Shown: positions 2 through 28,225 of the stretch, in pieces | Position numbering within the stretch: position 1 is the first letter of the stretch | How the letters are laid out: each line of letters starts with the position of its first letter | Sequence record: OM386662.1 | DNA from: Escherichia phage vB_EcoM_ESCO47 | Length of the DNA stretch: 64,000 nt | Direction: 5' to 3' (one strand) | Program-made: the position numbers and the translations under genes | Notes under the pieces: model-generated | The model's database searches: none | Told to the model about the DNA's origin: nothing | Seen by the model: the letters and a program-made list of their open reading frames with translations, nothing else

Positions 2-364
2 AATCTTTGTTTTGATGTCGATGATTGCATCACGGAATGGAATAACACTCGTGATTACGTGAACTTCAAGCCAGACAGCGAAATGGTGTCTGCTATTAAT
101 GCCTTGTATGATGCAGGGCATACCATAACGCTTTACACTGCTCGCGGTATGAAGTCGGTAGGTCCTGGTCGTATAGCAATTGACATTCTCCCAAGTCTGA
201 TTCAGAACTTGGAAAACATTGGTTTGAAGTACCATAATTTGCTAACACATAAACCAGTATATGATTGGATTATCGACGACAAAGCTATGCGTCCTGACGA
301 ATTCAAAGCTCTTATGAATAAAGGCGAATTCGAAACATTTAAATCATATAAACCTAATCTATAA
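2..364 (+). CDS. HAD-superfamily phosphatase, small IIIA-like type; 5' end lies outside the window
   Basis: Frame is open from the window edge; FDVDDC nucleophile motif near the visible N-terminus and a later WIIDDK motif; the listed ORF start at 59 is an internal GTG. Confidence 0.6.
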   Translation, partial: NLCFDVDDCITEWNNTRDYVNFKPDSEMVSAINALYDAGHTITLYTARGMKSVGPGRIAIDILPSLIQNLENIGLKYHNLLTHKPVYDWIIDDKAMRPDEFKALMNKGEFETFKSYKPNL

Positions 365-421
365 TAATTTAAGTAAGACCTGCAAAAACCATCGCGTCAA
401 TTAACGTGAGATGCAAAAAAA

Positions 422-1582
422 ATGAATACTTTTAAAATCGGAACGAATTTTGATTTAGCTCTTCTTGATAAAATCGTAGAGCTCAATAAAACTTATCCTA
501 ATAGCTTAATAAACGAAGTATACGGCTCTACAAGAGAAATGGCTTTTGTAGCAGCCAGACCTGATTTTAGGCTTCCTGACGTTGACAAAAAGATGTTAGA
601 AGATTACGTTAAACGTTGTAACGAATTAGGTATTTGCTTTAACTATACACTCAACACGATAAATCCTGGTTCAAAAAGAGAACTAGTTGAGTGGAAGAAG
701 AAAGCTATTCAGGATTATGTTCAGTATCTTTGGTCAATAGGCGTATGGCGTATTACTATCGCTAACCCTGTTGTTATGGAAATTGTTCGTGAAGTCAATA
801 AAGACATTGAGATTGAAGTTTCAACAATTCTACATGTCGATGCTGTAACTCAAATCAAATACTTGCATGACCAATATAATATTAAAAAGGTCTGTTGCGG
901 AATTCATAAGAACCGTTCAGTTTCTTTCCTGAAGCGTGCAGCAGAGTTTTGCAATAAGAACAATATAATATTTGAAGTTCTTGTAAATGAGTTCTGTTCT
1001 AATGCTGGTAAAGGGTATACAACACATTGTAGTTATCGTGACTCTTGCTATATTTTCCATAGTACTGATGTTACAGTTGATGATGCTAAATCCTTAAACG
1101 GATATCCAATGCAACACTGCATTAAAGCTCGTGATACAGACCCATTTAACTGGTTGAGAACTCGTTTTGTTCGTCCTCAAGATTTGAAACTTTATAATGA
1201 TATTGGTATCACTCAATTCAAAGTTTCAGGACGTACAGGTAGCACAGACTACATTTTGAAAGTTCTTGAAGCATACGCTTCTGAAAAGTTTGAAGGTAAT
1301 TTGTTAGAACTGTGGAAGCCTTTAGAGACTATTTTCACTCTTGAAAATGAAACTGAGTTTTCACATACAGTAAATATTGAAACCTCTTTGTTAGATGGCT
1401 TTTTAGAAAAAAGGTGGTTCAGACATCCAGATTTCGATTGTGCTAATGAAATCTGCGGGACGACGTGTACATATTGTGAAAGATATTATAAACGTCAATT
1501 ATCTAAAAACGGGTTATCAGAAAATTCTATATCTATTATTGATATAACTAACTCTGATGACGCTTTGAGGTACCCGGAATGA
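422..1582 (+). CDS. U32-family-like TIM-barrel protein with Cys-rich C-terminus (putative Fe-S enzyme)
   Basis: 386 aa; NYTLNTIN, VSTILH and FEVLVNEFC...HCSYRDSC segments resemble the peptidase-U32 core; C-terminal CANEICGTTCTYC (CX4CX3CX2C). Confidence 0.45.
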   Translation: MNTFKIGTNFDLALLDKIVELNKTYPNSLINEVYGSTREMAFVAARPDFRLPDVDKKMLEDYVKRCNELGICFNYTLNTINPGSKRELVEWKKKAIQDYVQYLWSIGVWRITIANPVVMEIVREVNKDIEIEVSTILHVDAVTQIKYLHDQYNIKKVCCGIHKNRSVSFLKRAAEFCNKNNIIFEVLVNEFCSNAGKGYTTHCSYRDSCYIFHSTDVTVDDAKSLNGYPMQHCIKARDTDPFNWLRTRFVRPQDLKLYNDIGITQFKVSGRTGSTDYILKVLEAYASEKFEGNLLELWKPLETIFTLENETEFSHTVNIETSLLDGFLEKRWFRHPDFDCANEICGTTCTYCERYYKRQLSKNGLSENSISIIDITNSDDALRYPE

Positions 1583-1818
1583 TTTCTAGAAAAACTTTTA
1601 ACCACCAACTTAATGAAGAGATTTTGACTATGAAAATTAACAGCATCGAACAAATTCTTAAAAAGGCCCTTATGGGCCTGTTTGAAACTAAAGCGGCTAA
1701 AGTGATTAAAGAACCTGTTCAACTAGAATATTACGCTGATGCATTTCTTCATAGTGTTCTTGGAAGTATCGATGCTGAAGCTTTACGTTATATCAACATC
1801 GCTAAGAAATTCAAATAA
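1579..1818 (+). CDS. hypothetical protein (79 aa)
   Basis: ATGA stop/start overlap with upstream gene; no motif recognised. Confidence 0.4.
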   Translation: MISRKTFNHQLNEEILTMKINSIEQILKKALMGLFETKAAKVIKEPVQLEYYADAFLHSVLGSIDAEALRYINIAKKFK

Positions 1819-1860
1819 GCTTTATGAATTGAGTATATAATAAATTGTATTGAGGTAAAC

Positions 1861-2577
1861 ATGGGAAAACATAACACAATGAAATATATCAAAGCCGCAG
1901 ATTTTCAAGCCGCATTTAAAGCAGTCAATCGTGAAATTTTAGAAAACCCGGAATTCGTAACTGATTCTCGTATTGGTCGTTGTAATGAAATTGGGTCTAT
2001 GACAGTAGTTGTTGACACTCCATCATCATTCAAAATGACCGACCCACGTATTAACCGCATCTCTTATGAATATGCCGAAGACTTCTGGAAATTTATGATT
2101 TCTGGTGGTACTGATGCAGAAGAAGCATTTAAGGCATATCCTAACGTTGCTAAATTTATTTCTAAACCAAAATCAGATGCTTTGCCTGCGAACTTCAACA
2201 CTTTCTATGGTCCTCGCATTGCGGCCCAATTACCAACTCTTCTAAAAGAACTTAAAGAGAAGCCTAACTCTCGAAGAGTTGTGTTCCAAATTCTAGAAAG
2301 TTCTGATCAGGCTTTGCTTGATTCGGACGAAACACTTGAATATCCATGTACTGACTCGGTGACTTATTATATTCGCGATGGTAAGCTTTATACCCACTGT
2401 CATATGCGTTCTCAGAACTGTGCTGTTGTTATGCAGTTGGATTTTTATCTCCAAGGAAAATTACTTCATTATATCGCTAACGAATGTGGTGTAGAAGTTG
2501 GTGATTATACTCATACCATGGTAAGTGCCCATGTGTTTGAACGTGATTTTGATTATGTTAAAGGATTCCTTGACTAA
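1861..2577 (+). CDS. 42: deoxycytidylate hydroxymethylase-like enzyme (thymidylate synthase fold)
   Basis: NSRR, YPCTDSVTYYIRDGKL (Cys nucleophile) and RSQN motifs align with the TS family; Asp at the position of TS Asn177; sits where T4 has gene 42, upstream of uvsX. Confidence 0.75.
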   Translation: MGKHNTMKYIKAADFQAAFKAVNREILENPEFVTDSRIGRCNEIGSMTVVVDTPSSFKMTDPRINRISYEYAEDFWKFMISGGTDAEEAFKAYPNVAKFISKPKSDALPANFNTFYGPRIAAQLPTLLKELKEKPNSRRVVFQILESSDQALLDSDETLEYPCTDSVTYYIRDGKLYTHCHMRSQNCAVVMQLDFYLQGKLLHYIANECGVEVGDYTHTMVSAHVFERDFDYVKGFLD

Positions 2578-3476
2578 TGGCTATTTTCCGCGTACCTATC
2601 TTGAGTATGCGGTCTTATGAAACCGGACAGTATGCTATCCTTAAGGATGGCAACTTCCAACTTCATTTGCACCGTGCTAATCCAGGTGATGTGATTACAT
2701 ATCCACGTAATGCATCTGATATTAAAGAATGTGAACGTCTTTTCCCAGAATTTAAGTTTGTTCCATTATGGTATAAAGATAACGCGTATAACACTCGTAA
2801 ATATTTCTGGTCTGAAAATGAATTTGTGGTTGATTCATTAATTGCTTATTATGATTGTGATTTTCTAATCACAGATATCACTGGATATGATGGTGTTTTT
2901 GATGTAGAATTCAATTTCAATATCACTGCAGACCCTAATAAACCACGTTTTTATATTGACGAATTCTTAAAAACCGATATGTTGTCGGTTAATCGTTCAC
3001 TTCAAACTACTGTGTTGAATGAACGTCAAAAAGAAGTGCTGGTTAACGCAGGTGCAGATGGTAATAAGATTATCGTAACGCAGAAAGTTATACGTCCTTC
3101 CATCATGCAGCGTCTTGTAGGTGATTTGGCTCCTATTCATCTAGATGGTATTTTTCATCCATTTCGAATTAGTGACCCGTGCTATCGTTTTGAACAAGTG
3201 GTTGAATGTGCAATTCAATTAGGCCAACCACTTTATATAACCGATCCAAATAATAGCTTCGACAGAAATAAGTATCCTGAAGAAGCGCTGATTCGAATTT
3301 TTAAACCAACTAAAACTGAGTACTATCAAATTCTTAAAGGACGTCCGAAGATTCAATATTTCGAAAATCCTGAAGAAGTATTCCATCCAGGTCTTGGTGA
3401 GTTCATCTACTTTAACGCTTTAATTTCTTCGCCGTATAATATACCTAAATATGAAGATGTCGTAATCGAGGAATAA
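2577..3476 (+). CDS. hypothetical protein (299 aa) in the slot T4 uses for beta-glucosyltransferase
   Basis: TAATG stop/start overlap with gene 42; no resemblance to T4 Bgt as I recall it; no motif recognised. Confidence 0.55.
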   Translation: MAIFRVPILSMRSYETGQYAILKDGNFQLHLHRANPGDVITYPRNASDIKECERLFPEFKFVPLWYKDNAYNTRKYFWSENEFVVDSLIAYYDCDFLITDITGYDGVFDVEFNFNITADPNKPRFYIDEFLKTDMLSVNRSLQTTVLNERQKEVLVNAGADGNKIIVTQKVIRPSIMQRLVGDLAPIHLDGIFHPFRISDPCYRFEQVVECAIQLGQPLYITDPNNSFDRNKYPEEALIRIFKPTKTEYYQILKGRPKIQYFENPEEVFHPGLGEFIYFNALISSPYNIPKYEDVVIEE

Positions 3477-3477
3477 A

Positions 3478-4026
3478 ATGGCTAAAATTATTTTAGTAGA
3501 TGGCCCAGATAATGCTGGTAAAACAACTTTCATTAATGACATAATGGAAATTAGTGAAAGATATGTAAAGATTGATTTCCCTAAACGAACTGTAGATGGA
3601 CGCTTTGATGTTAAGTCTCGAAATGAAGTAGGCTGTTTCGAAACAATGCTAAATTATTTAGACCCTACTAAGATTTATCTGTTAGACCGTGGATATATTA
3701 GTAACTGGGTTTACGGACGTATTCGACAAGATGCGGACTCGGTTCTTGACGTTTATGAACAGGATTATGTTCGTCTTTGCCAAAACCATGATGTGTTCAC
3801 AATTATTTTAACACGTAACGAAATGACTGAAAGTTTTGAAGACGACCTTATCACGTTGTCTGCTCATGGCTTTAATTTTGTTATCTCACTTTTTGAAGAG
3901 TTTGCTGCTCATAATGGAATACAATCTTATCAGTTATTAAACCATGATGGTGCTAACAAAGTTATAGGATTTAATGTAAGTGAACGCAATGCATTGATTG
4001 CAGAAATTATCAAATGGGCTCGTTAA
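3478..4026 (+). CDS. P-loop nucleotide/nucleoside kinase (thymidylate-kinase / deoxynucleoside-kinase-like)
   Basis: Walker A ILVDGPDNAGKTT at N-terminus; LLDRGYIS (DR motif) as in Tmk/dNK kinases; 182 aa. Confidence 0.6.
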   Translation: MAKIILVDGPDNAGKTTFINDIMEISERYVKIDFPKRTVDGRFDVKSRNEVGCFETMLNYLDPTKIYLLDRGYISNWVYGRIRQDADSVLDVYEQDYVRLCQNHDVFTIILTRNEMTESFEDDLITLSAHGFNFVISLFEEFAAHNGIQSYQLLNHDGANKVIGFNVSERNALIAEIIKWAR

Positions 4027-4047: not shown

Positions 4048-4072
4048 TGCTGTATAACCTGTAGTATATAAT
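4048..4072 (+). promoter_or_regulatory. candidate MotA-dependent middle promoter upstream of uvsX
   Basis: MotA-box-like TGCTGTA 4048-4054, 12 bp, then -10 TATAAT 4067-4072. Confidence 0.35.
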
Positions 4073-4126
4073 CATCCTATCTTTTAAACGTGAGTAAAAT
4101 ATAATGACGCCTATGGAAAAAATACA

Positions 4127-11623: not shown

Positions 11624-11658
11624 TAACATCTCTTAAACATGAATTGAAAGGAAATAAA

Positions 11659-12180
11659 ATGGCGCACTTTAACGAATGTTCACAACTGATTGCTGGTGTT
11701 GATAAAGCTGAAGAAGCTTATTTTAATGCTCTTATTCACGAAGATAAAGACCCGTTGCAGGTAATGCTTGATATGCAGAAATCTTTACAGGTTCGTCTGG
11801 CAAATGACAAGCCTGAACATAACAAACATCCTGATGAATTGGCCACTGCTGGTGAAGTCGTTGATTGGCTACGCAATCAGAAAGATTATATTGACGATGA
11901 ATTCCGTGAACTTCTGACTTCTCTTGGTGGTATGAGCAATGGTGAAAAAGCCGCCAGCAGTGTATGGAAGCCGTGGAAGGCGCAACATGCTGAATATCGA
12001 AATCGTCGTATCGATGAACTGTCTCCTGAAGACCAGCTTGAAATCAAATTTGAAATGATTGATATTCTCCATTTCGTTCTGAATATGTTCCAAGGTCTTG
12101 GTCTTACTGCTGAAGAAATCTTTAAATTGTACTACCTGAAGAACAAACATAATTTTGAACGCCAGGATAATGGATATTAA
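11659..12180 (+). CDS. 56: dCTP pyrophosphatase gp56 (dCTPase/dUTPase-like)
   Basis: MAHFNEC...DPLQVMLDMQ...YYLKNK...RQDNGY matches T4 gp56 as I recall it; listed ORF starts at TTG 11644, ATG at 11659. Confidence 0.9.
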   Translation: MAHFNECSQLIAGVDKAEEAYFNALIHEDKDPLQVMLDMQKSLQVRLANDKPEHNKHPDELATAGEVVDWLRNQKDYIDDEFRELLTSLGGMSNGEKAASSVWKPWKAQHAEYRNRRIDELSPEDQLEIKFEMIDILHFVLNMFQGLGLTAEEIFKLYYLKNKHNFERQDNGY

Positions 12181-22838: not shown

Positions 22839-23939
22839 ATGAAAGTTATGTTTATCCCATCTCGTGCAGTCCCATTTAATCCTGACCGTGTACAAGGTGG
22901 TCTTGAAGCGGTACATTTAAATGTGTTGAAATATTTAGTTTCTATCGGTGCCGATATTGATTATATCGGTTTTGATAACGACACATTTGGTGATTGGAAA
23001 GTTACACACCATCCTGTTGGCCATCTTACTAAATTCAGTCTAGGTATGAGTTATACTATGGCTCGTAAGATTGTTGAACTGGCCGGCATCCATGAATACG
23101 ATTTTGTTGTTACTATGGAACCGACTAAACTAACCGTTCAGGCAATTAAAGACGCAGGTCTCTCTAAAGTTCATAAGAATTTTATGGCAACACCATTTGA
23201 ACCTGTATCTCGTGGCATTGTTCAAATTTGGGACCAGACTATTCAAATTCATAAGAACGGTGGTAAGAGTTATGCTCCTACTAAAGCCTTCCGTGAATTT
23301 GAACGCAAATATTGTCATATGACTTCAGGTCTGACAGACAAAATTGATTATGATTATTGGCGAGCAAATCCGTTGTTTGAAGCCGAAGATTATCCGGTTA
23401 TTTGTTTGAATGAGAAACCTGAAGTTCTTCCAGCAACTGATCTGATTATTAGTGCACAACGTTATGACACTAAAATGCGTCGTACTGATGTTGCTCTTGA
23501 AGCGATTAAAGCGCTCGGCGAAAATGGTGCAGGATACTGTCCTAGTAAATGGGCACCACCGGCTAAGTATCCAGTAACTATTGATGCTCCACATAGTGAA
23601 ATCATGGAACGCCTTAAAACAGCTAAAGCACTTATCAATACGTGTCCTGACACCGGCACGGTAGAGAATAGTTCTATTGAAGCTATTTCTAAAGGTGTAC
23701 CTGTGATTCAGCTAGTCTTTAAAGATTATCCACATGCTACGTTTGAATATGACCCTGACACGGTACGTGTAGAGATTGATGCTTCCACCCCTAAGAAAGA
23801 AGTAGTTATGCTTTACACAAAAGCTGTATTAGAATTCACTGACACATACGAATCACGAGTCAAACGTGCAGAATATGTATGGCAAAAGTATAATCGGGAT
23901 GCAGTTGTAGCGATGTGGGATAAAATCTTCACAGCGTAA
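22839..23939 (+). CDS. GT-B fold glycosyltransferase (candidate DNA hmC glycosyltransferase)
   Basis: 366 aa; C-terminal TGTVENSSIEAISKGVPVIQ resembles the nucleotide-sugar binding motif of GT-B enzymes; T4 has no such gene between 39 and rIIA. Confidence 0.55.
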   Translation: MKVMFIPSRAVPFNPDRVQGGLEAVHLNVLKYLVSIGADIDYIGFDNDTFGDWKVTHHPVGHLTKFSLGMSYTMARKIVELAGIHEYDFVVTMEPTKLTVQAIKDAGLSKVHKNFMATPFEPVSRGIVQIWDQTIQIHKNGGKSYAPTKAFREFERKYCHMTSGLTDKIDYDYWRANPLFEAEDYPVICLNEKPEVLPATDLIISAQRYDTKMRRTDVALEAIKALGENGAGYCPSKWAPPAKYPVTIDAPHSEIMERLKTAKALINTCPDTGTVENSSIEAISKGVPVIQLVFKDYPHATFEYDPDTVRVEIDASTPKKEVVMLYTKAVLEFTDTYESRVKRAEYVWQKYNRDAVVAMWDKIFTA

Positions 23940-24031
23940 ATCCTGAATAGCCTGAGGCACTATTACACATAAGATGATAAATTATATGGTCTTTGGTAAT
24001 AGTGTCATAGGAATCTACTGAAGAGAATATT

Positions 24032-24232
24032 ATGAGAACATATAACGTGGACTTGGAACTTTTTGATAAAGCGGTGCTCCGGGAATTCCGGCTTATCCAA
24101 AGATTTTTTGATATCGAGTCAGCAGAGTCCTTTAAAGAACGCTTTAAAGAAATTCGATATAAAATACAAACCGATACAGCTACTAAAGAAGAACTTCTTG
24201 AAGTAGCAGAAATTTTTAAACGTAACTTGTGA
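24032..24232 (+). CDS. hypothetical protein (66 aa)
   Basis: Immediately upstream of rIIA; no motif recognised. Confidence 0.45.
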   Translation: MRTYNVDLELFDKAVLREFRLIQRFFDIESAESFKERFKEIRYKIQTDTATKEELLEVAEIFKRNL

Positions 24233-24244
24233 CGAGAGAAAAAT

Positions 24245-26458
24245 ATGATTATTGAAACGGCTAAAGAAACGATTATTGGTTCAGGCGGTAAGAGCACAGC
24301 ATTCACTATTCAAGCAAACAGTAAAGTGTATAAGATTCTTTCTAACGATCTTTACACAAACAAAGAACGAGCTTGTGTACGTGAATTAATCACAAACTGT
24401 ATTGATGGGCAAATTCTTAATGGCTGCACTGATAAGTTTATTGTTCAGGCACCAGGTCGTTTAGACCCACGTTTTGTAGTTCGAGACTTTGGTCCTGGTA
24501 TGAGTGATTTCACCATTCGAGGTAATGACGAAGAGCCAGGAATTTATAACTCATATTTTGCTTCAACTAAAACATCGAGTAACGATTTCATTGGTGGATT
24601 CGGACTCGGTTCTAAAGCTCCATTAGCATATACTGATACGTTTAACATTACTTCTTATCATAATGGTGAAGTTCGTGGTTATGTAATTTATCAAGATGAC
24701 AGTGGTCCACAGATTAAGCCAACCTTCGTAGATAAGATGGGTCCTGATGACCGGACCGGTGTTGAAGTAGTTGTGCCTGTTAACCCAGAAGATTTTGAAA
24801 AGTTCGCATCCGAAATTGCTTATGTTATGCGTCCTCTCGGCGATATTGCAGAAGTTCGTGGTGTTAAAGATATCAAATACTTCCCTGATTTCGACGACGT
24901 TTATCTGGCCAAGGATGCTCCATGGGGTGAACGTGGTAACATCATGGCTGTTTATGGTGGTATTGTATATCCTATCAGTGACGCTATTAAAGAACAAACA
25001 TGGATGATGACGCGATGCACTACAGCTTATATTAAATTCCCCATGGGTGAACTAGATGTAGCCCCGTCTCGTGAAGCATTGTCATTTGATAAACGTACAG
25101 TAGCAAATATCCATAAACGTGTTGCAGAAATTGATGCAAAATTATTTGCTGAAGATTCTAAGAAATGGATTGATTGTGAATATCCACGTCATGTATTCCG
25201 TGAAATCGATTCTCTTGGTTACTCTGCTCGTAAATACATGGAAAAAGCTGGTTCTAATATTGAATCACTGAAATATTCTAAAGAACAGCTAACTTATTCT
25301 GAGTTGTACAAACGTTTTAAAATGGGTCCTGAATGGTGCAACCTTGGTGTTGTATACGATATCGTTTCAGACCCACGTCTTCGTCGTATTCGTGAAAGCG
25401 GAAGCTCGTCTGCAACTATTTCAATTAATAGCCTGCTAGGTATTAGCCGTAAGCATATTGATATTGTTATTGACGATGTGAAAGGCCGCGTACCAATGAT
25501 GCGTGCTCTGAACGATGCTTTGACTTCCACTGATGCATCAACACTCGTTGATAAGGTTCCTTCCGGATGGGGTAGTAGCGTATTATTCATTAACCCGGAA
25601 GATGAAGTTGCAATGAAACTTCTAGAACGATTAAAGGTTATTTTCGCTGGGGATAGCCTTAAATTTTATAAGACATCTGAAATTCTTGCATTAGTTAAAC
25701 CGTGGATTGAAGTTAAAGAACGTTCATCGCAGCCTCGTCCTAAATCCCCAAGTGCTCATCGGTTCTTTAAGAATGAAAACGATGTTTGGGTATCAGAAGA
25801 TCTCTTTATTCCAGCGAGTGAAGCTGATGAAATCCAAGGTTATGCTATAGTTCGTAATCGTTCTAATGCTGAATGTCTTGACGCAGATAAAGGTTGGTTG
25901 AACTATGACTCCAATTTCTTGACCCGTATTGCTGATTTGTCAGGTATTAAAGAGTTCACTGTAGTCCGTCCACAGATTGCTAAGAAAGTTCGTAAACTTG
26001 GTGAAGTAGAATGCTTGTTCGAAAAATCAATTAATGACTATATTACGCTAATTGATAAAGTGGATTATGATGAGTATGTATCACCAAGTCGTAGAGCACA
26101 GCCTTATTTGAATCATATTACTCGTAATGAAGAGCTTAACTTCCTTAGTAAGTATTTTAGCTCTAAGAACAAAGAAATCAGTAAAGATTTTGCAAAACTT
26201 TCAACAGTAAATAATCGTTGGGGATGGAATCGATTCTCAGGTGTTACTAACAGAGAACTGAATAAGAAGTTGGAATTGTGTGCTAAAATTTTCGATAAGC
26301 TTAAAGATAATGCTTACGATAATGATGATAAAATGGTTATTGAATTCGAAACCAATTATCATATTGTGTCAGACTACATGGGACGACGTGGTACTCTTTC
26401 CAAAGAACAGGTCGCTCAAATCGTTAAATTCATGAAGGCCGTGGAAGCGGCCAAATAA
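24245..26458 (+). CDS. rIIA: rIIA membrane-associated protein (GHKL ATPase-like N-domain)
   Basis: 737 aa; Bergerat-fold motifs ELITNCIDG, DFGPGM, GGFGLGSKA; followed by rIIB. Confidence 0.9.
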   Translation: MIIETAKETIIGSGGKSTAFTIQANSKVYKILSNDLYTNKERACVRELITNCIDGQILNGCTDKFIVQAPGRLDPRFVVRDFGPGMSDFTIRGNDEEPGIYNSYFASTKTSSNDFIGGFGLGSKAPLAYTDTFNITSYHNGEVRGYVIYQDDSGPQIKPTFVDKMGPDDRTGVEVVVPVNPEDFEKFASEIAYVMRPLGDIAEVRGVKDIKYFPDFDDVYLAKDAPWGERGNIMAVYGGIVYPISDAIKEQTWMMTRCTTAYIKFPMGELDVAPSREALSFDKRTVANIHKRVAEIDAKLFAEDSKKWIDCEYPRHVFREIDSLGYSARKYMEKAGSNIESLKYSKEQLTYSELYKRFKMGPEWCNLGVVYDIVSDPRLRRIRESGSSSATISINSLLGISRKHIDIVIDDVKGRVPMMRALNDALTSTDASTLVDKVPSGWGSSVLFINPEDEVAMKLLERLKVIFAGDSLKFYKTSEILALVKPWIEVKERSSQPRPKSPSAHRFFKNENDVWVSEDLFIPASEADEIQGYAIVRNRSNAECLDADKGWLNYDSNFLTRIADLSGIKEFTVVRPQIAKKVRKLGEVECLFEKSINDYITLIDKVDYDEYVSPSRRAQPYLNHITRNEELNFLSKYFSSKNKEISKDFAKLSTVNNRWGWNRFSGVTNRELNKKLELCAKIFDKLKDNAYDNDDKMVIEFETNYHIVSDYMGRRGTLSKEQVAQIVKFMKAVEAAK

Positions 26459-26467
26459 GGAAACATT

Positions 26468-27403
26468 ATGTACAATATCAAATGCTTGTCCCAAGAAGAA
26501 CAGTTAGAAGCTTACGGCCTGGTTGAATCAGGCAAATGGACCCGTAAAGAAATTGCCGATTACTTTGACATTTCAACAGATACTCTTCGTAAGATTGTTA
26601 AGAATTTTAAAGCTGAAGAGAAAGCCTCTGAATTTGAAGACGAAGAACAGGTCCCAGAAAATAATGAACCTATTATTACAGGTCATCGTCCAGAAATCGT
26701 ATGGAACGCGTCGTCTAAATTTATTTCAATTATTGAAGGACGCGATTCATATAATGCGACACCAACAAGCCATGCGAATTTTGAAGAAATTAAAGCTAAT
26801 TTGGTCGCAGGAAACTTTGCTAAAGCTATCGAACTTATTAACCTCAAGAAAGCTATTACTAAGTATGTTGATGGTAATATTATTATTGAAGGTGGTCGCC
26901 TATTTTATCAAGGAATAGAAATTCGTTCAGGACTTGTCGATCGTATTATCGACTCTATGGAAAAAGGCGAAGACTTTAAATTTTATCTGCCATTCCTTGA
27001 AAACTTGTTAGAAAACCCAAGTGAAAAAGCAGTTCAACGCTTATTCGACTTCTTGGTTGCAAACGATATTGAAATCACTGAAGACGGTCATTTCTACGCA
27101 TGGAAAGTAGTTCGTAAAGACTATTTAGATTGCTATAGTGGCACATTTGATAACTCGCCTGGTAAAGTTGTTTCAATGCCTCGTACTCGTGTTAACGATG
27201 ATGATACTCAAACTTGTTCCAGTGGTCTACATGTTTGTGCTAAATCATATATTCGTTACTTTGGTTCTAGCTCAGATAAAGTTGTTAAGGTTAAAGTTCA
27301 TCCACGTGATGTTGTATCCATCCCAGTTGACTACGGTGATGCTAAGATGCGTACTTGTCGTTATGAAGTAATTTCAGACGTTACTGAATTATTTGCAGAA
27401 TAA
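26468..27403 (+). CDS. rIIB: rIIB protein
   Basis: 311 aa; MYNIKCL... and C-terminal half closely match T4 rIIB as I recall it. Confidence 0.93.
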   Translation: MYNIKCLSQEEQLEAYGLVESGKWTRKEIADYFDISTDTLRKIVKNFKAEEKASEFEDEEQVPENNEPIITGHRPEIVWNASSKFISIIEGRDSYNATPTSHANFEEIKANLVAGNFAKAIELINLKKAITKYVDGNIIIEGGRLFYQGIEIRSGLVDRIIDSMEKGEDFKFYLPFLENLLENPSEKAVQRLFDFLVANDIEITEDGHFYAWKVVRKDYLDCYSGTFDNSPGKVVSMPRTRVNDDDTQTCSSGLHVCAKSYIRYFGSSSDKVVKVKVHPRDVVSIPVDYGDAKMRTCRYEVISDVTELFAE

Positions 27404-27408
27404 TAATT

Positions 27409-27431
27409 GGGGACTTCGGTCCCCTTTTTTC
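27409..27431 (+). terminator. rho-independent terminator after rIIB
   Basis: GGGGAC-TTCG-GTCCCC then TTTTTT. Confidence 0.75.
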
Positions 27432-27444
27432 TTTAGGGGTAATT

Positions 27445-27732
27445 ATGATTCATCCATTTGACGTATCAGAATCCAAAATTGCTAATCTTCGCGGTCATCA
27501 TAAGTGTAAATCAGTTTATTGTGCTAAATTGGTAAAACATCCTGGCGATGCACACTACGGCTGGTTAGAATGTGACGAAGTTGTTATTGAAATCCCTCCT
27601 GTGGATGCAGAATACCTTGAAGAAGGTGATCGCATTTATTTAGGTGAACTACATATTAGAGGTATCTATGGTAAAGACGAACTTGGGACTACTGAGACTG
27701 AAGAGTCTTCCGACATTTATCCTGTCGAATGA
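27445..27732 (+). CDS. hypothetical protein (95 aa)
   Basis: Follows rIIB terminator; Cys/His-containing N-terminal half. Confidence 0.5.
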   Translation: MIHPFDVSESKIANLRGHHKCKSVYCAKLVKHPGDAHYGWLECDEVVIEIPPVDAEYLEEGDRIYLGELHIRGIYGKDELGTTETEESSDIYPVE

Positions 27733-27748
27733 GTTTCTGACTAGCGAA

Positions 27749-28225
27749 ATGAAGGTAAAGATCGCGGATACAGCCAAGTATTCTCTTAGTCAAGACCCTG
27801 ATCAAATCAAAGAAGACGTAGTTCGTCGTTGTAAGGTTGCAGTCTTTGCCGAGTATGTAGTCGCTAATTGGTTAGATGGATATGTTAATAAAGGCATTGA
27901 AGATGTTGAAGACCCTTACACGTATGCATGGGATGTTCTAGCTCATCCTAAATACTGTGGATTGCGTGTAGAAGTCAAGACTCATCAGATGGACTCACGT
28001 TGGATTTCAGTCACTACAGGATATAGTGGCGATTATCCGGGTGGTAATGGAATCAATATAGGGCCCTTCTTGAATCATCGAGTCGCAGATTGCATTATTA
28101 TATTAAATGCCAAAGAAACCTCACCTGACGTCTTCTCTTATTCTATAAAGTTCGCGGGAGACCATGAAGACCTAAAGAAAATCGTCCGCAAGAGCAACTA
28201 CAACGGGTGGTATCTTCATCTTTAA
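27749..28225 (+). CDS. putative PD-(D/E)xK-type nuclease (DenB position)
   Basis: D...EVK-like motif WDVLAHPKYCGLRVEVKT; start ambiguous (GTG 27644, ATG 27668 with AGAGG, or ATG 27749). Confidence 0.4.
   Translation: MKVKIADTAKYSLSQDPDQIKEDVVRRCKVAVFAEYVVANWLDGYVNKGIEDVEDPYTYAWDVLAHPKYCGLRVEVKTHQMDSRWISVTTGYSGDYPGGNGINIGPFLNHRVADCIIILNAKETSPDVFSYSIKFAGDHEDLKKIVRKSNYNGWYLHL

What the first reader, a model, noticed from the sequence alone, without database searches (positions are those of the whole stretch)
2..4026. Non-T4 enzyme block wrapped around the hydroxymethylase gene: candidate nucleotide/DNA hypermodification module
In T4 the interval between DNA polymerase and uvsX carries imm, gene 42 and beta-glucosyltransferase. 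Here the same slot holds one tightly coupled co-directional block (ATGA overlap at 1579, TAATG overlap at 2577): a HAD phosphatase, a U32-like Cys-rich TIM-barrel protein, a 79-aa ORF, a TS-fold pyrimidine hydroxymethylase, a 299-aa protein with no motif I recognise, and a thymidylate-kinase-like P-loop kinase. Phosphatase + kinase + TS-like enzyme + a transferase-sized unknown is the kind of gene set found in phage base-hypermodification pathways. I do not know this particular combination, with a U32-like protein, to be described.
Basis: partly seen in the sequence, partly recalled or inferred. Interest (0 to 1): 0.8.

Follow-up and report, generated by a model that had tools for sequence, protein, structure and literature searches.

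The report
Known arabinosyl-hydroxycytosine cluster; unexplained U32 enzyme
This gene block is the already published pathway by which RB69-like phages replace cytosine in their DNA with arabinose-decorated 5-hydroxycytosine, but one strongly conserved gene in it (a U32-family iron-sulfur protein) has no explained role and looks like an oxygen-independent back-up hydroxylase.

Summary
The six co-directional ORFs exist exactly as described. The window is a Mosigvirus, 97% identical to RB69. The block equals RB69 gp51–gp45, part of the published gp45–gp55 cluster that makes arabinosylated 5-hydroxycytosine (Lee 2026, which cites He 2026 and Mahler 2025). Its "hydroxymethylase" is wrong: the TS homologue is the flavin/O2-dependent dCMP 5-hydroxylase. 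It is about 98% identical to PDB 9iqc and carries the N169 signature.

The 299-aa unknown is the first arabinosyltransferase. The HAD protein matches the phosphatase assigned to UDP-arabinose synthesis.

The residual interest is the U32 protein (gp50). It is the most conserved gene in the block (81–87% across genera; dN/dS 0.04), yet Lee 2026 only lists it as "sugar or heterocycle reductase". Known U32 enzymes are Fe-S, prephenate-dependent, O2-independent hydroxylases, and RlhA makes 5-hydroxycytidine.

In eight other genera of T4-like phages the U32 gene sits next to a chorismate mutase, the enzyme that makes prephenate. In 30 unrelated viral lineages it sits with the same glycosyltransferase (21) and kinase (20), sometimes with chorismate mutase or DAHP synthase (6), and never with the TS-type hydroxylase.

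I propose that gp50 is an anaerobic twin of gp48 (probability about 0.55). Two key papers could not be read.

The parts
2..364 (+). HAD-superfamily phosphatase, with its 5' end cut off by the window start. It is the RB69 gp51 homologue. Lee 2026 equates gp51 with HY126 AfhF, a sugar-phosphate phosphatase in UDP-arabinofuranose synthesis.
   Evidence: 97.5% identical to RB69p051 residues 9-128. Matches TIGR01689 capsule-biosynthesis phosphatase at E = 4e-13 and phrog_1238 at E = 1.5e-40. The role comes from PMC13326640 and was not tested here.
422..1582 (+). U32-family, Cys-rich TIM-barrel protein (RB69 gp50 homologue). Proposed here to be a prephenate-dependent, O2-independent pyrimidine C5 hydroxylase. 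This is an inference.
   Evidence: PF01136 scores 42.4 bits against a cut-off of 22.4. 99% identical to RB69p050. The AF2 model has pLDDT 91 and its top PDB fold hit is the U32 protein 5d88. Ten Cys are invariant across 41 homologues. The best profile match among E. coli U32 enzymes is RlhA (probability 84%). 81-87% identical across genera. dN/dS 0.038.
1579..1818 (+). 79-aa three-helix protein (RB69 gp49 homologue), translationally coupled to the U32 gene through an ATGA overlap. Function unknown. It is not a chorismate mutase.
   Evidence: phrog_8601, unknown function. hhalign against the phage CM family gives probability 5%. The conserved core is Y51, D54-A55-F56, H58-S59, G62, E67 and R70. 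The model has pLDDT 83 and no fold match. Homologues sit as a separate ORF beside a true CM in TG1, PM2 and 92A1.
1861..2577 (+). Thymidylate-synthase-fold dCMP 5-hydroxylase (5hodCMP synthase; RB69 gp48 homologue). It is flavin- and O2-dependent. It is not a hydroxymethylase.
   Evidence: 99.2% identical to RB69p048. E = 1.6e-161 to PDB 9iqc/9ir2. The signature is ThyA D169->N, N177->D and L143->E, with C146 kept; T4 gp42 keeps D169. The activity was shown for RB69 gp48 in PMC13326640.
2577..3476 (+). 299-aa glycosyltransferase (equivalent to RB69 gp46:47). It is the predicted first arabinosyltransferase acting on 5-hydroxycytosine.
3478..4026 (+). Thymidylate-kinase-like P-loop kinase (RB69 gp45 homologue). 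Its substrate is unproven. Inferred here to be a kinase for the modified dNMP.
   Evidence: 94.5% identical to RB69p045. phrog_761 'thymidylate kinase' at E = 2.3e-43. Only the P-loop matches TIGR00041 (E = 0.017). Listed as 'nucleotide kinase' and untested in PMC13326640. A TMK-like kinase lies within 10 kb of the U32 gene in 20 of 30 unrelated viral lineages.
11644..12180 (+). dCTPase (T4 gp56 / RB69 gp28 homologue). It lies outside the finding's coordinates but belongs to the pathway: it removes dCTP and supplies dCMP.
   Evidence: tblastn match at 11659-12177, 96.5% identical to RB69p028. ORF bounds. Role from the RB69 annotation and PMC13326640 Table 1.
22839..23939 (+). Second arabinosyltransferase (RB69 gp3 homologue), lying between the topoisomerase gene and rIIA. 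It is outside the finding's coordinates but part of the pathway.
   Evidence: 97.5% identical to RB69p003 over 366 aa. ORF bounds. Predicted beta-arabinosyltransferase 2 in PMC13326640.

Best explanation
The block is the uvsX-proximal half of the RB69-type gene cluster that replaces every cytosine in virion DNA with mono- or di-arabinosylated 5-hydroxycytosine.

Steps shown by others for RB69 or close relatives:
- dCTPase supplies dCMP.
- The TS-fold enzyme (window 1861..2577) hydroxylates dCMP at C5 using a flavin and O2.
- A dNMP kinase phosphorylates the product, which is then incorporated during replication.
- UDP-arabinofuranose is made from ribulose-5-phosphate by an isomerase, a bifunctional kinase/uridylyltransferase and the HAD phosphatase (window 2..364).

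Steps predicted by others:
- The 299-aa glycosyltransferase (2577..3476) attaches the first arabinose.
- The gp3 homologue (22839..23939) attaches the second.

Steps inferred by me:
- The U32 protein (422..1582) is an Fe-S, prephenate-dependent, O2-independent C5 hydroxylase of a pyrimidine deoxynucleotide.
- It would supply 5-hydroxy-dCMP when the O2-dependent gp48 cannot work, for example in the anoxic gut.
- This would parallel E. coli's own aerobic/anaerobic pairs TrhO/TrhP and UbiI,H,F/UbiU,V.
- The TMK-like kinase (3478..4026) would be the dedicated kinase for the hydroxylated dNMP.
- In Mosigviruses the prephenate would come from host PheA/TyrA. Sister genera carry their own minimal chorismate mutase.

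The 79-aa protein stays unassigned.

My confidence is about 0.97 that the block is this cluster and about 0.55 for the U32 mechanism.
For: Identity of the cluster:
- The block is 97% identical at the DNA level to RB69 23974-28071.
- Each protein is 94-100% identical to RB69 gp45-gp51.
- The TS homologue is about 98% identical to PDB 9iqc/9ir2 and has the N169/D177/E143 signature.
- The pathway chemistry and the 18O2 labelling are in PMC13326640.
- The dCTPase and the second arabinosyltransferase are also in the window.

U32 hypothesis:
1. It is a genuine U32 member by Pfam and by fold.
2. Characterised U32 proteins (RlhA, TrhP, UbiU/V) all act in O2-independent hydroxylation of aromatic carbons. 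They need Fe-S clusters and prephenate, and RlhA makes 5-hydroxycytidine (PMC5727448; PMC10990095).
3. Ten Cys are invariant in the viral subfamily, including three of the four canonical U32 positions, a Cys that aligns with UbiU's 'GYPTLC' cysteine, and a C-terminal CX4CX3CX2C motif. The best E. coli profile match is RlhA.
4. In Winkler-, Kanagawa-, Teguna-, Marfa-, Mosuguk-, Braga- and Kagamiyamavirus, and in Shewanella phage Thanatos-2, the U32 gene is followed by a CM_2 chorismate mutase scoring 32.8-46.2 bits against a cut-off of 27. These keep R11, R28, K39, E52, S84 and Q88 of the E. coli CM domain. The pair stays adjacent even where the cluster is rearranged.
5. The CM occurs in 56 phage records, always in this cluster.
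6. JS98 and Acinetobacter phage Maestro lack the U32 and the CM together.
7. Among 30 non-T4-like viral U32 lineages, 21 have a gp46:47-type GT within 10 kb (11 adjacent) and 20 have a TMK-like kinase. Six have a CM, a DAHP synthase or a DAHPS-CM fusion, and two have a TET-associated glycosyltransferase. None has a 5hodCMP-synthase-type TS.
8. U32 homologues occur only in phages of facultative anaerobes. They are absent from all 57 Acinetobacter phage records and all 20 Rhizobium phage records that carry the TS hydroxylase, and no Agrobacterium phage record is among the named U32 genera or the listed U32 rows.
9. It is the most conserved protein in the block and is under strong purifying selection.
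Against: - gp48 plus a dNMP kinase is enough to put 5hodC into E. coli DNA aerobically.
- Dhakaviruses (JS98), which also infect E. coli, and Acinetobacter phages make do without the U32 gene. The gene is therefore accessory.
- The window's own lineage has no chorismate mutase anywhere in 64 kb (no Mosigvirus). The prephenate link is borrowed from relatives.
- The second Cys of the canonical CX6C U32 motif is missing.
- Similarity to the E. coli hydroxylases is remote. Pairwise BLAST is not significant, and the hhalign probability is 84% for RlhA but 8% or less for the others.
- No U32 protein has yet been reconstituted as a hydroxylase in vitro (PMC10990095).
- The host-aerobiosis correlation rests on only a few independent phage clades.
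- TS-type hydroxylases could lie beyond the +-10 kb examined in the metagenomic contigs.
- I could not read He 2026 or Mahler 2025, which may assign gp50 differently.
Confidence: 0.85

Rival explanations
1. The U32 protein works on the sugar branch. It would be a reductase, epimerase or ring-contracting enzyme involved in making or editing the NDP-arabinose donor. This follows the label 'sugar or heterocycle reductase' in Lee 2026.
For: It lies between the HAD phosphatase and the base-modifying genes. PMC13326640 Table 1 gives that label, and BASEL annotators wrote 'putative enzyme involved in UDP-arabinose biosynthesis'. Generic TIM-barrel fold hits include sugar-phosphate isomerases and aldolases. 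Some metagenomic neighbourhoods contain SIS, NTP-transferase, epimerase or GLF genes.
Against: The isomerase, the kinase/uridylyltransferase and the phosphatase already account for every step to UDP-Araf. Phages without the U32 gene (DLP3, Maestro, Bas-type relatives of JS98) still arabinosylate their DNA. No U32 enzyme is known to act on a sugar. A sugar role does not explain the adjacency to chorismate mutase or DAHP synthase. In TS-less phages the U32 gene sits with the kinase and GT, often without any sugar-activation genes.
Confidence: 0.12
2. The U32 protein is an RNA hydroxylase like TrhP or RlhA. It would modify host or phage tRNA or rRNA (ho5U34 or ho5C2501) to tune translation, and is only accidentally placed in the DNA-modification cluster.
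For: The only characterised nucleic-acid U32 enzymes act on RNA. The best E. coli profile match is RlhA. Prephenate also feeds cmo5U synthesis through CmoA. T4-like phages encode tRNAs (own knowledge).
Against: The gene is always inside the DNA-modification cluster and is translationally coupled to its neighbours. In 21 of 30 unrelated viral lineages it lies within 10 kb of the base glycosyltransferase, and in 20 of 30 within 10 kb of a dNMP-kinase-like gene. Other neighbours include dCMP deaminase, dUTPase and UDG. It lacks the long C-terminal extension of RlhA.
Confidence: 0.1
3. The U32 protein helps gp48 indirectly. It could be an Fe-S electron-transfer partner that reduces the loosely bound flavin, or a maturation factor.
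For: gp48 binds FMN loosely and needs reduced flavin. gp50 has ten invariant Cys, consistent with redox clusters. The two genes are neighbours in all U32-bearing T4-like phages examined.
Against: gp48 works in E. coli without gp50. The U32 subfamily is widespread in phages with no gp48-type enzyme nearby. The link to prephenate supply would be unexplained.
Confidence: 0.08
4. One reading: a hydroxymethylase-based pathway in which 5hmC is made and then further decorated, as in T4 but with a different sugar.
For: The TS fold and the dCMP-specifying Asp at position 177 are shared with T4 gp42. Many database records annotate the gene as dCMP hydroxymethylase. Thomas 2018 originally reported arabinosyl-hmC (PMC6024577).
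Against: NMR and MS show an ether link directly to C5 with no methylene group. 18O2 is incorporated, and the enzyme carries flavin. The Durham-collection paper calls the hmC assignment erroneous. The window protein has the N169 signature of the hydroxylases.
Confidence: 0.02
5. The U32 protein is a collagenase-type protease, as its database name says.
For: Database annotations such as 'peptidase' and 'collagenase-like protease'.
Against: The name is historical. No catalytic protease residues are defined for this family, and all functional studies point to hydroxylation. The gene context is nucleotide metabolism.
Confidence: 0.02

Closest known systems
RB69 / HY126 / DLP3 arabinosyl-5-hydroxycytosine pathway (RB69 gp45-gp55; 'Afh' genes of He 2026; Lee 2026, PMC13326640; Mahler 2025)
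   Same: Gene for gene the same block, at 94-100% protein identity to RB69 gp45-gp51. It has the same TS-fold hydroxylase signature, the same glycosyltransferase, the same HAD phosphatase and the same genome position between DNA polymerase and uvsX.
   Different: Nothing substantive. The 299-aa GT is intact here but split in the RB69 record. The published descriptions I could read leave gp50 (U32), gp49 and gp45 without a tested or discussed role.
T4 glucosyl-5-hydroxymethylcytosine pathway (gp56 dCTPase, gp42 dCMP hydroxymethylase, gp1 kinase, alpha/beta-glucosyltransferases)
   Same: The logic is the same: destroy dCTP, modify dCMP with a TS-fold enzyme, incorporate it, then glycosylate on DNA. 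The genomic slot is also the same.
   Different: The chemistry at C5 is hydroxylation with flavin and O2, not folate-dependent hydroxymethylation. The sugar is arabinofuranose made by phage enzymes rather than host UDP-glucose. The U32, gp49, TMK-like kinase and HAD genes are extra.
Prephenate-dependent U32 hydroxylases with aerobic twins in E. coli: RlhA (ho5C2501), TrhP versus TrhO (ho5U34), UbiU/UbiV versus UbiI/H/F
   Same: U32 domain and fold, and conserved Cys clusters. The viral subfamily is genomically linked to prephenate supply (chorismate mutase, DAHP synthase). The proposed product, a 5-hydroxy-pyrimidine, is the same base chemistry as RlhA and TrhP. A flavin/O2 enzyme coexists with a U32 enzyme for the same product.
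   Different: It is only a remote relative: a separate, virus-associated subfamily with a shortened Cys motif and its own C-terminal CX4CX3CX2C. The presumed substrate is a deoxynucleotide or DNA, not RNA or a quinone. The activity is untested.
Phage TET/JBP dioxygenase plus TET-associated glycosyltransferase (TAGT) systems
   Same: A hydroxylase creates a hydroxyl handle on cytosine C5 that a dedicated DNA glycosyltransferase then decorates. In contigs L026 and L052 a TAGT directly follows the U32 gene.
   Different: TET enzymes are Fe/2-oxoglutarate, O2-dependent, and act on 5mC in DNA. Here a U32 protein sits in that position, and no TET is present.

Membership tests
RB69-type arabosyl-5-hydroxycytosine cluster | TS-fold enzyme with the 5hodCMP-synthase signature (Asn at E. 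coli ThyA position 169, Asp at 177, acidic residue at 143, catalytic Cys146) | tested here: met
   Alignment A4: the window protein has N, D, E and C at these positions, as do RB69 gp48, JS98, Maestro and Thanatos-2. T4 gp42 has D at 169.
RB69-type arabosyl-5-hydroxycytosine cluster | Close homology to an enzyme with demonstrated dCMP 5-hydroxylase activity or a solved structure | tested here: met
   99.2% identical to RB69 gp48. E = 1.6e-161 over the full length to PDB 9iqc/9ir2. Activity shown in PMC13326640.
RB69-type arabosyl-5-hydroxycytosine cluster | gp46:47-type first glycosyltransferase next to the hydroxylase, and a second arabinosyltransferase near rIIA | tested here: met
   Window 2577..3476 matches RB69p047 plus RB69p046. 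Window 22839..23939 matches RB69p003 at 97.5%.
RB69-type arabosyl-5-hydroxycytosine cluster | UDP-arabinofuranose supply genes (arabinose-5-P isomerase, bifunctional kinase/uridylyltransferase, HAD phosphatase) | tested here: inconclusive
   Only the HAD phosphatase lies inside the window, and it is partial. The other two lie upstream of the window start. They are present in the syntenic genomes Bas46 and RB69.
RB69-type arabosyl-5-hydroxycytosine cluster | Virion DNA actually contains arabinosylated 5-hydroxycytosine | not testable with these tools
   Needs LC-MS or NMR of this phage's DNA. It has been shown for RB69 and for the Mosigvirus NP.
Peptidase U32 family (PF01136) | U32 domain above Pfam's gathering score, and the U32 TIM-barrel fold | tested here: met
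   42.4 bits against a cut-off of 22.4. The AF2 model has pLDDT 91. The top PDB hit is 5d88, U32 protein Mk0906, at E = 6e-8.
Prephenate-dependent U32 hydroxylases (RlhA/TrhP/UbiU-V) | Four-Cys motif that binds the [4Fe-4S] cluster (CX6CX15CX3-4C, or the UbiU variant) | tested here: inconclusive
   C192, C203 and C209 align with the first, third and fourth positions. The second position is absent. Invariant C233 aligns with the Cys of UbiU's 'GYPTLC' motif.
Prephenate-dependent U32 hydroxylases (RlhA/TrhP/UbiU-V) | Dependence on prephenate | tested here: inconclusive
   The evidence is genomic and comes from relatives only. A CM_2 gene adjoins the U32 gene in eight other T4-like genera, and six of 30 other viral lineages have a CM or DAHPS. 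The window itself has no CM. Biochemistry is not testable here.
Prephenate-dependent U32 hydroxylases (RlhA/TrhP/UbiU-V) | O2-independent hydroxylase activity on an aromatic carbon | not testable with these tools
   Requires anaerobic genetics or biochemistry.
AroQ chorismate mutase (CM_2), considered for the 79-aa ORF | CM_2 domain with catalytic residues R11, R28, K39, E52, S84 and Q88 | tested here: not met
   No Pfam hit at E <= 10. hhalign against the phage CM family gives probability 5%. It is a separate ORF from the true CM in TG1, PM2 and 92A1.
   Asn at position 169. The near-identical RB69 enzyme makes 5hodC using O2 and carries flavin.
Thymidylate kinase (for the 182-aa kinase) | Full-length match to TMK models, including the lid and the NMP-binding region | tested here: inconclusive

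The most novel reading that the evidence does not exclude
The U32 protein gp50 (window 422..1582) would be the founding T4-like member of a virus-wide family of prephenate-dependent, O2-independent pyrimidine C5 hydroxylases acting on deoxynucleotides or DNA.

In enterobacterial T4-like phages it would be the anaerobic twin of the flavin/O2 hydroxylase gp48. That would let the phage keep replacing cytosine in the anoxic gut.

In many other phages the conserved unit of TMK-like kinase, gp46:47-type glycosyltransferase and U32 would be the sole route to glycosylated hydroxypyrimidines. Some of these phages add chorismate mutase or DAHP synthase to boost prephenate.

This would be the first DNA-directed U32 enzyme. 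It would also be the first viral hijacking of the shikimate pathway to supply an oxygen-atom donor.

The stated probability includes the chance that this is already published in the two papers I could not read.
Probability: 0.4. Interest if true: 0.85.

Novelty: already known. Interest (0 to 1): 0.5.

Why it matters
As a whole, the block is a textbook-in-the-making example that has already been published. It explains why RB69-like phages resist most restriction enzymes and are sensed by specific type IV systems. Finding it again adds nothing new.

What could matter is the gene nobody has explained. The published hydroxylase takes its oxygen atom from O2, yet these phages infect gut bacteria and replace all of their cytosine.

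If the U32 protein is an oxygen-independent, prephenate-driven hydroxylase, four things would follow:
- It would explain how the modification is kept up without oxygen.
- It would extend the newly discovered use of prephenate as an oxygen donor from RNA and quinones to DNA precursors.
- It would give U32 enzymology a small, soluble, highly expressed viral model with a simple nucleotide substrate. No U32 hydroxylase has yet been reconstituted in vitro.
- It would flag dozens of uncultured phage lineages, including jumbo phages, as carriers of undiscovered hydroxypyrimidine-based DNA modifications.

It is also relevant to phage therapy, because modification status, and hence sensitivity to host defences, could depend on oxygen and on the host's aromatic amino-acid metabolism.

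Tried and rejected
- **79-aa ORF as a diverged chorismate mutase.** Rejected: no CM_2 hit and hhalign probability 5%. In TG1, PM2 and 92A1 it coexists with a true CM as a separate ORF.
- **A chorismate mutase hidden elsewhere in the window.** None found: best 12 bits, against 118 bits for the control. No Mosigvirus appears among the 56 phage records with the CM.
- **Pairwise BLAST of gp50 against RlhA, TrhP and UbiU.** Not significant. Only the profile comparison with RlhA was informative.
- **PDB sequence search** for gp50, the GT and the kinase. No useful hits.
- **Fold search of the gp49 model.** Nothing.
- **PADLOC scan** of four proteins. Nothing.
- **AFDB50 fold search.** The library was unavailable.
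- **Model coordinates** were not exposed, so Cys-Cys distances could not be measured.
- **Promoter and terminator scan.** Counts did not exceed those in shuffled sequence.
- **The TS-like gene in contig L046.** It is a canonical ThyA that keeps D169 and N177, not a hydroxylase.
- **My first DAHPS profile** was contaminated with CM residues and gave spurious 20-36-bit hits on the small CMs. Only hits above 200 bits were counted, and Pfam confirmed them.
- **One dN/dS row** (U32 against Bas46) was mis-framed and is discarded.
- **Literature.** He 2026 and Mahler 2025 are not held. Searches for U32, chorismate mutase or prephenate in a phage DNA-modification context found nothing. The search for Afh gene names returned only unrelated papers.

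Full report
**1. What is there**

The two start/stop overlaps (ATGA at 1579, TAATG at 2577) can be read in the sequence.
- Peptidase_U32 for the 386-aa protein and Thymidylat_synt for the 238-aa protein, both above Pfam's cut-offs.
- A HAD-type capsule-biosynthesis phosphatase model for the truncated first ORF.
- A phage 'thymidylate kinase' PHROG for the last ORF.
- Nothing in Pfam or NCBIfam for the 79-aa and 299-aa ORFs.

**2. Where it comes from**

The 4.1-kb block is 97.2% identical to phage RB69 (23974-28071, minus strand). It is at least 95% identical in 154 phage records, all Mosigvirus-like. Protein by protein, it matches RB69 gp51, gp50, gp49, gp48, gp47+gp46 and gp45 at 94-100% identity. 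The 299-aa ORF is intact here. The RB69 record splits it in two, which Lee et al. attribute to a sequencing error.

**3. It is a published system**

RB69 DNA was reported in 2018 to carry an arabinose on cytosine (PMC6024577). Lee et al. (NAR 2026, PMC13326640) showed the following:
- The base is beta-D-Araf-(1-3)-alpha-D-Araf-5-hydroxy-2'-deoxycytidine, with the sugar ether-linked directly to C5.
- The region gp45-gp55 encodes the pathway.
- The TS homologue gp48 converts dCMP to 5-hydroxy-dCMP. 18O2 is incorporated and the enzyme co-purifies with an FMN-like flavin.
- According to their summary of He et al. 2026, the crystal structure of the HY126 homologue contains a flavin, and O2 is the oxygen source.

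The window's TS homologue is about 98% identical to the new PDB entries 9iqc/9ir2/9iqu. In an alignment with E. coli ThyA and T4 gp42, it has Asn at ThyA-169, Asp at 177 and Glu at 143, and it keeps Cys146. T4 gp42 keeps Asp169. Lee et al. name the position-169 change as the predictor of 5hodCMP synthases.

The other assignments in the literature are:
- The HAD protein corresponds to AfhF, a sugar-phosphate phosphatase in UDP-arabinofuranose synthesis.
- The 299-aa protein is the predicted first arabinosyltransferase.
- The kinase is listed only as 'nucleotide kinase', untested.

Two further pathway genes lie elsewhere in the window: the dCTPase (11644..12180) and the second arabinosyltransferase (22839..23939). 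The isomerase and the bifunctional kinase/uridylyltransferase lie just upstream of the window start, as seen in Bas46 and RB69.

**4. What is not explained**

In Lee et al., gp50 appears only in Table 1 as 'sugar or heterocycle reductase', with 5d88 as its fold hit. gp49 is not mentioned at all. [quoted passage not shown] It does not connect these to gp50, although RlhA and TrhP are U32 proteins.

I could not obtain He 2026 or Mahler 2025. Full-text searches found nothing that links U32, chorismate mutase or prephenate to phage DNA modification.

**5. Evidence on gp50 from the protein itself**

- It is a bona fide U32 member by Pfam.
- The AlphaFold model built from 41 homologues is confident (pLDDT 91, pTM 0.90). 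Its best PDB match is the only solved U32 structure, 5d88; the other hits are generic TIM barrels.
- Across homologues down to 48% identity, ten Cys are invariant: C158, C177, C192, C203, C209, C233, and a C-terminal CX4CX3CX2C at 340/345/349/352.
- Aligned with E. coli UbiU, UbiV, TrhP and RlhA, C192, C203 and C209 fall on the first, third and fourth positions of the family's Fe-S motif. The second position is missing. C233 lies in a 'GYPMQHC' segment that matches UbiU's 'GYPTLC'.
- Pairwise BLAST to the E. coli enzymes is not significant.
- A profile of the viral subfamily aligns with RlhA, the 5-hydroxycytidine synthase, at 84% probability over 206 columns. The figures are 8% for TrhP, 5% for UbiU and 0.3% for UbiV.
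- It is the most conserved protein in the block, at 81-87% identity to every other genus. In the distant phages it exceeds UvsX.
- Its dN/dS against RB69 is 0.038, equal to the TS enzyme and UvsX.

**6. Evidence from T4-like relatives**

The U32 gene occurs in 221 phage records. All named host genera are Enterobacterales plus Shewanella. The TS-type hydroxylase occurs in 373 records. These include 57 Acinetobacter and 20 Rhizobium phage records, and neither genus appears among the U32 hits. Several Agrobacterium phage records also carry the TS gene, and no Agrobacterium phage appears among the named U32 genera or the listed U32 rows.

In eight other lineages a small ORF following the U32 gene, directly or after one or two other small ORFs, scores above Pfam's cut-off for chorismate mutase type II (32.8-46.2 bits against 27). 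The lineages are LC53 (Winklervirus), Entb_45 (Kanagawavirus), TG1 (Tegunavirus), PhiKpNIH-6 (Marfavirus), Pectobacterium PM2 (Mosugukvirus), phiP4-3 (Bragavirus), EcS1 (Kagamiyamavirus) and Shewanella phage Thanatos-2.

All of these ORFs, and the equivalent ORF of Serratia phage 92A1, keep R11, R28, K39, E52, S84 and Q88 of the E. coli PheA mutase domain. To my knowledge these are its catalytic residues. In Thanatos-2 the cluster is rearranged, but the U32 and CM genes remain adjacent with a 4-nt overlap.

The CM is found in 56 phage records, always in this context and never in a Mosigvirus. JS98 (Dhakavirus, an E. coli phage) and Acinetobacter phage Maestro lack the U32 and the CM together, while keeping the phosphatase, kinase, TS and GT genes.

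The window's 79-aa ORF is not this mutase. It belongs to a separate small family with a conserved YxxDAFxHS core, and in TG1, PM2 and 92A1 it sits beside the true CM. Its first ~15 residues recur at the N-terminus of the 114-aa CM of LC53 and EcS1, which suggests a past fusion or deletion. Its predicted fold is three helices with no structural match.

The window lineage therefore has the U32 gene but no chorismate mutase of its own.

**7. Evidence from unrelated viruses**

The subfamily has 268 database homologues. Beyond the T4-like set they are 48-58% identical and sit on phage-like contigs of up to 466 kb. A scan of IMG/VR gave 48 loci, of which 32 are not T4-like.

A Pfam census of the three genes on each side of the U32 gene in 23 dereplicated loci gave these counts:
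- Thymidylate_kin: 7
- DAHP_synth_1: 5
- CM_2: 4
- dUTPase families: 5
- UDG: 2
- SIS, NTP-transferase and HAD genes in smaller numbers

The CM_2 and DAHP-synthase hits are domains of the same proteins in four loci. Those proteins are therefore shikimate-pathway enzymes, not KDO8P synthases. In another lineage a stand-alone CM directly follows the U32 gene.

The unannotated ~326-aa ORF that overlaps the U32 start codon in many of these phages is homologous to the window's 299-aa glycosyltransferase (phmmer E = 9e-18 to 4e-10).

The tally for 30 lineages (clustered at 80% U32 identity), counting genes within 10 kb of the U32 gene, was as follows:

| Gene near the U32 gene | Lineages (of 30) |
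|---|---|
| gp46:47-type GT | 21 (11 directly adjacent) |
| TMK-like kinase | 20 |
| CM or DAHPS | 6 |
| TET-associated glycosyltransferase, directly after the U32 gene | 2 |
| TS homologue | 1 (a canonical ThyA that keeps D169 and N177) |

A kinase-GT-U32 unit therefore recurs in phages that have no gp48-type hydroxylase nearby.

**8. Interpretation**

Published work shows that U32 proteins act in O2-independent hydroxylations that require Fe-S clusters and prephenate:
- Prephenate donates the oxygen atom in anaerobic ubiquinone synthesis.
- The chorismate-mutase domain of PheA alone restores the pathway.
- RlhA yields 5-hydroxycytidine.

These points come from PMC10990095 and PMC5727448.

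The simplest reading of sections 5-7 is that gp50 is an O2-independent, prephenate-dependent C5 hydroxylase of a pyrimidine deoxynucleotide, or possibly of DNA. It would provide the hydroxyl handle for the adjacent glycosyltransferase. The TMK-like kinase would phosphorylate the product.

In enterobacterial T4-like phages it coexists with the O2-dependent gp48, just as E. coli keeps TrhO with TrhP and UbiI/H/F with UbiU/V.

A phage-encoded chorismate mutase or DAHP synthase could escape the host's end-product control of prephenate supply. That last point is inference from general knowledge of aromatic amino-acid regulation.

**9. Caveats**

- gp48 alone suffices aerobically.
- Some E. coli phages lack the U32 gene.
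- The window lineage lacks the CM.
- One canonical Cys is missing.
- No U32 hydroxylase has been reconstituted in vitro.
- The host correlation rests on few independent clades.
- The contigs were examined only within ±10 kb.
- Two primary papers were unreadable.

I put the mechanism at about 0.55. I put the chance that it is both true and unpublished at about 0.4.

**10. Verdict**

As a finding it is 'already known'. The moderate interest score reflects only the unexplained, unusually conserved U32 gene and the specific, cheap experiments that would test its role.

Noticed in passing
L047:8434-11083, L060:4301-6862, L057:8549-11080, L051:2182-4759, L073:8489-11071 (IMG/VR contigs); L027-L029: A contiguous unit of TMK-like kinase, gp46:47-type glycosyltransferase and U32, with start/stop overlaps, recurs in unrelated phage contigs. 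It lies next to DnaG primase, PolIII-alpha and radical-SAM genes, and there is no TS-type hydroxylase within 10 kb. It looks like an undescribed DNA base hydroxylation-glycosylation module.
   Followed up: partly
L055:8411-9430, L056:9-968, L059:8332-9384, L069:11079-12194; L061:11107-11433 and L066:10953-11420: Viral contigs of about 41 to 294 kb encode DAHP-synthase/chorismate-mutase fusion proteins (DAHPS at the N-terminus, CM_2 at the C-terminus), or a stand-alone CM, beside the U32 gene. Shikimate-pathway genes are unusual in phages (own knowledge).
   Followed up: partly
L026:6001-7997 and L052:10001-11976: A TET-associated glycosyltransferase (PF20691, 33.9 bits against a cut-off of 27.5) directly follows the U32 gene with a 4-nt overlap. 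In L026 a UDP-galactopyranose mutase (GLF) and a second sugar transferase are nearby. The U32 gene sits where TET normally would.
   Followed up: partly
L017:7447-9086 and L025:5504-7083: In two large phage-like contigs (466 kb and 60 kb) a dCMP deaminase gene immediately precedes the U32 gene, and overlaps it in L017. UDG, SSB and PolIII-alpha genes are nearby. This hints at a uracil-directed variant (5-hydroxy-dUMP?).
   Followed up: no
L018:8001-15428: An 86-kb contig that also carries dockerin and GH43 genes, which suggests an anaerobic Firmicute (own knowledge). The U32 gene is surrounded by NT5C, an NMN transporter, a deoxynucleoside kinase, a radical-SAM/SPASM protein, a second very divergent U32 paralogue and a nucleoside deoxyribosyltransferase-like gene.
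   Followed up: no
window 1579..1818 and its alleles in other Mosigviruses: The 79-aa gene varies far more than its neighbours. Several isolates have frameshifted or shortened alleles: AV113, JS09 and phi25-307 match in two pieces, HX01 and AV117 are only 76-77% identical, and PHB12 and DCP548 match only residues 1-47. It may be dispensable or decaying in this lineage.
   Followed up: no
L003:7158-7499 and L010:6155-6496: The 114-aa chorismate mutases of LC53 and EcS1 begin with 'MRRINHxMNE', which matches the N-terminus of the gp49 family. This suggests that a deletion fused the start of a gp49-like gene to the CM gene.
   Followed up: partly
L002:2261-3022 (NRG-P0074) and L003:5352-5990 (LC53): Homing-endonuclease genes are inserted inside the modification cluster. 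In NRG-P0074 the insert lies between the uridylyltransferase/kinase gene and the HAD phosphatase gene; in LC53 it lies between the HAD phosphatase gene and the U32 gene. In NRG-P0074 the HAD gene start is displaced.
   Followed up: no
window 1836..1846 and 4068..4078: TATAAT-containing A+T-rich stretches (GTATATAATA) lie just upstream of the TS gene and of uvsX. The block may therefore have internal promoters rather than being one transcription unit. The generic scan was not enriched over shuffled sequence.
   Followed up: partly
RB69 record NC_004928.1, 19011-19689 (L021): In RB69 the imm and imm.1 genes are not in the polymerase-uvsX interval as they are in T4. They lie about 4 kb beyond uvsX, next to the spackle gene sp. 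The modification cluster therefore displaced more than gene 42 and beta-gt.
   Followed up: no
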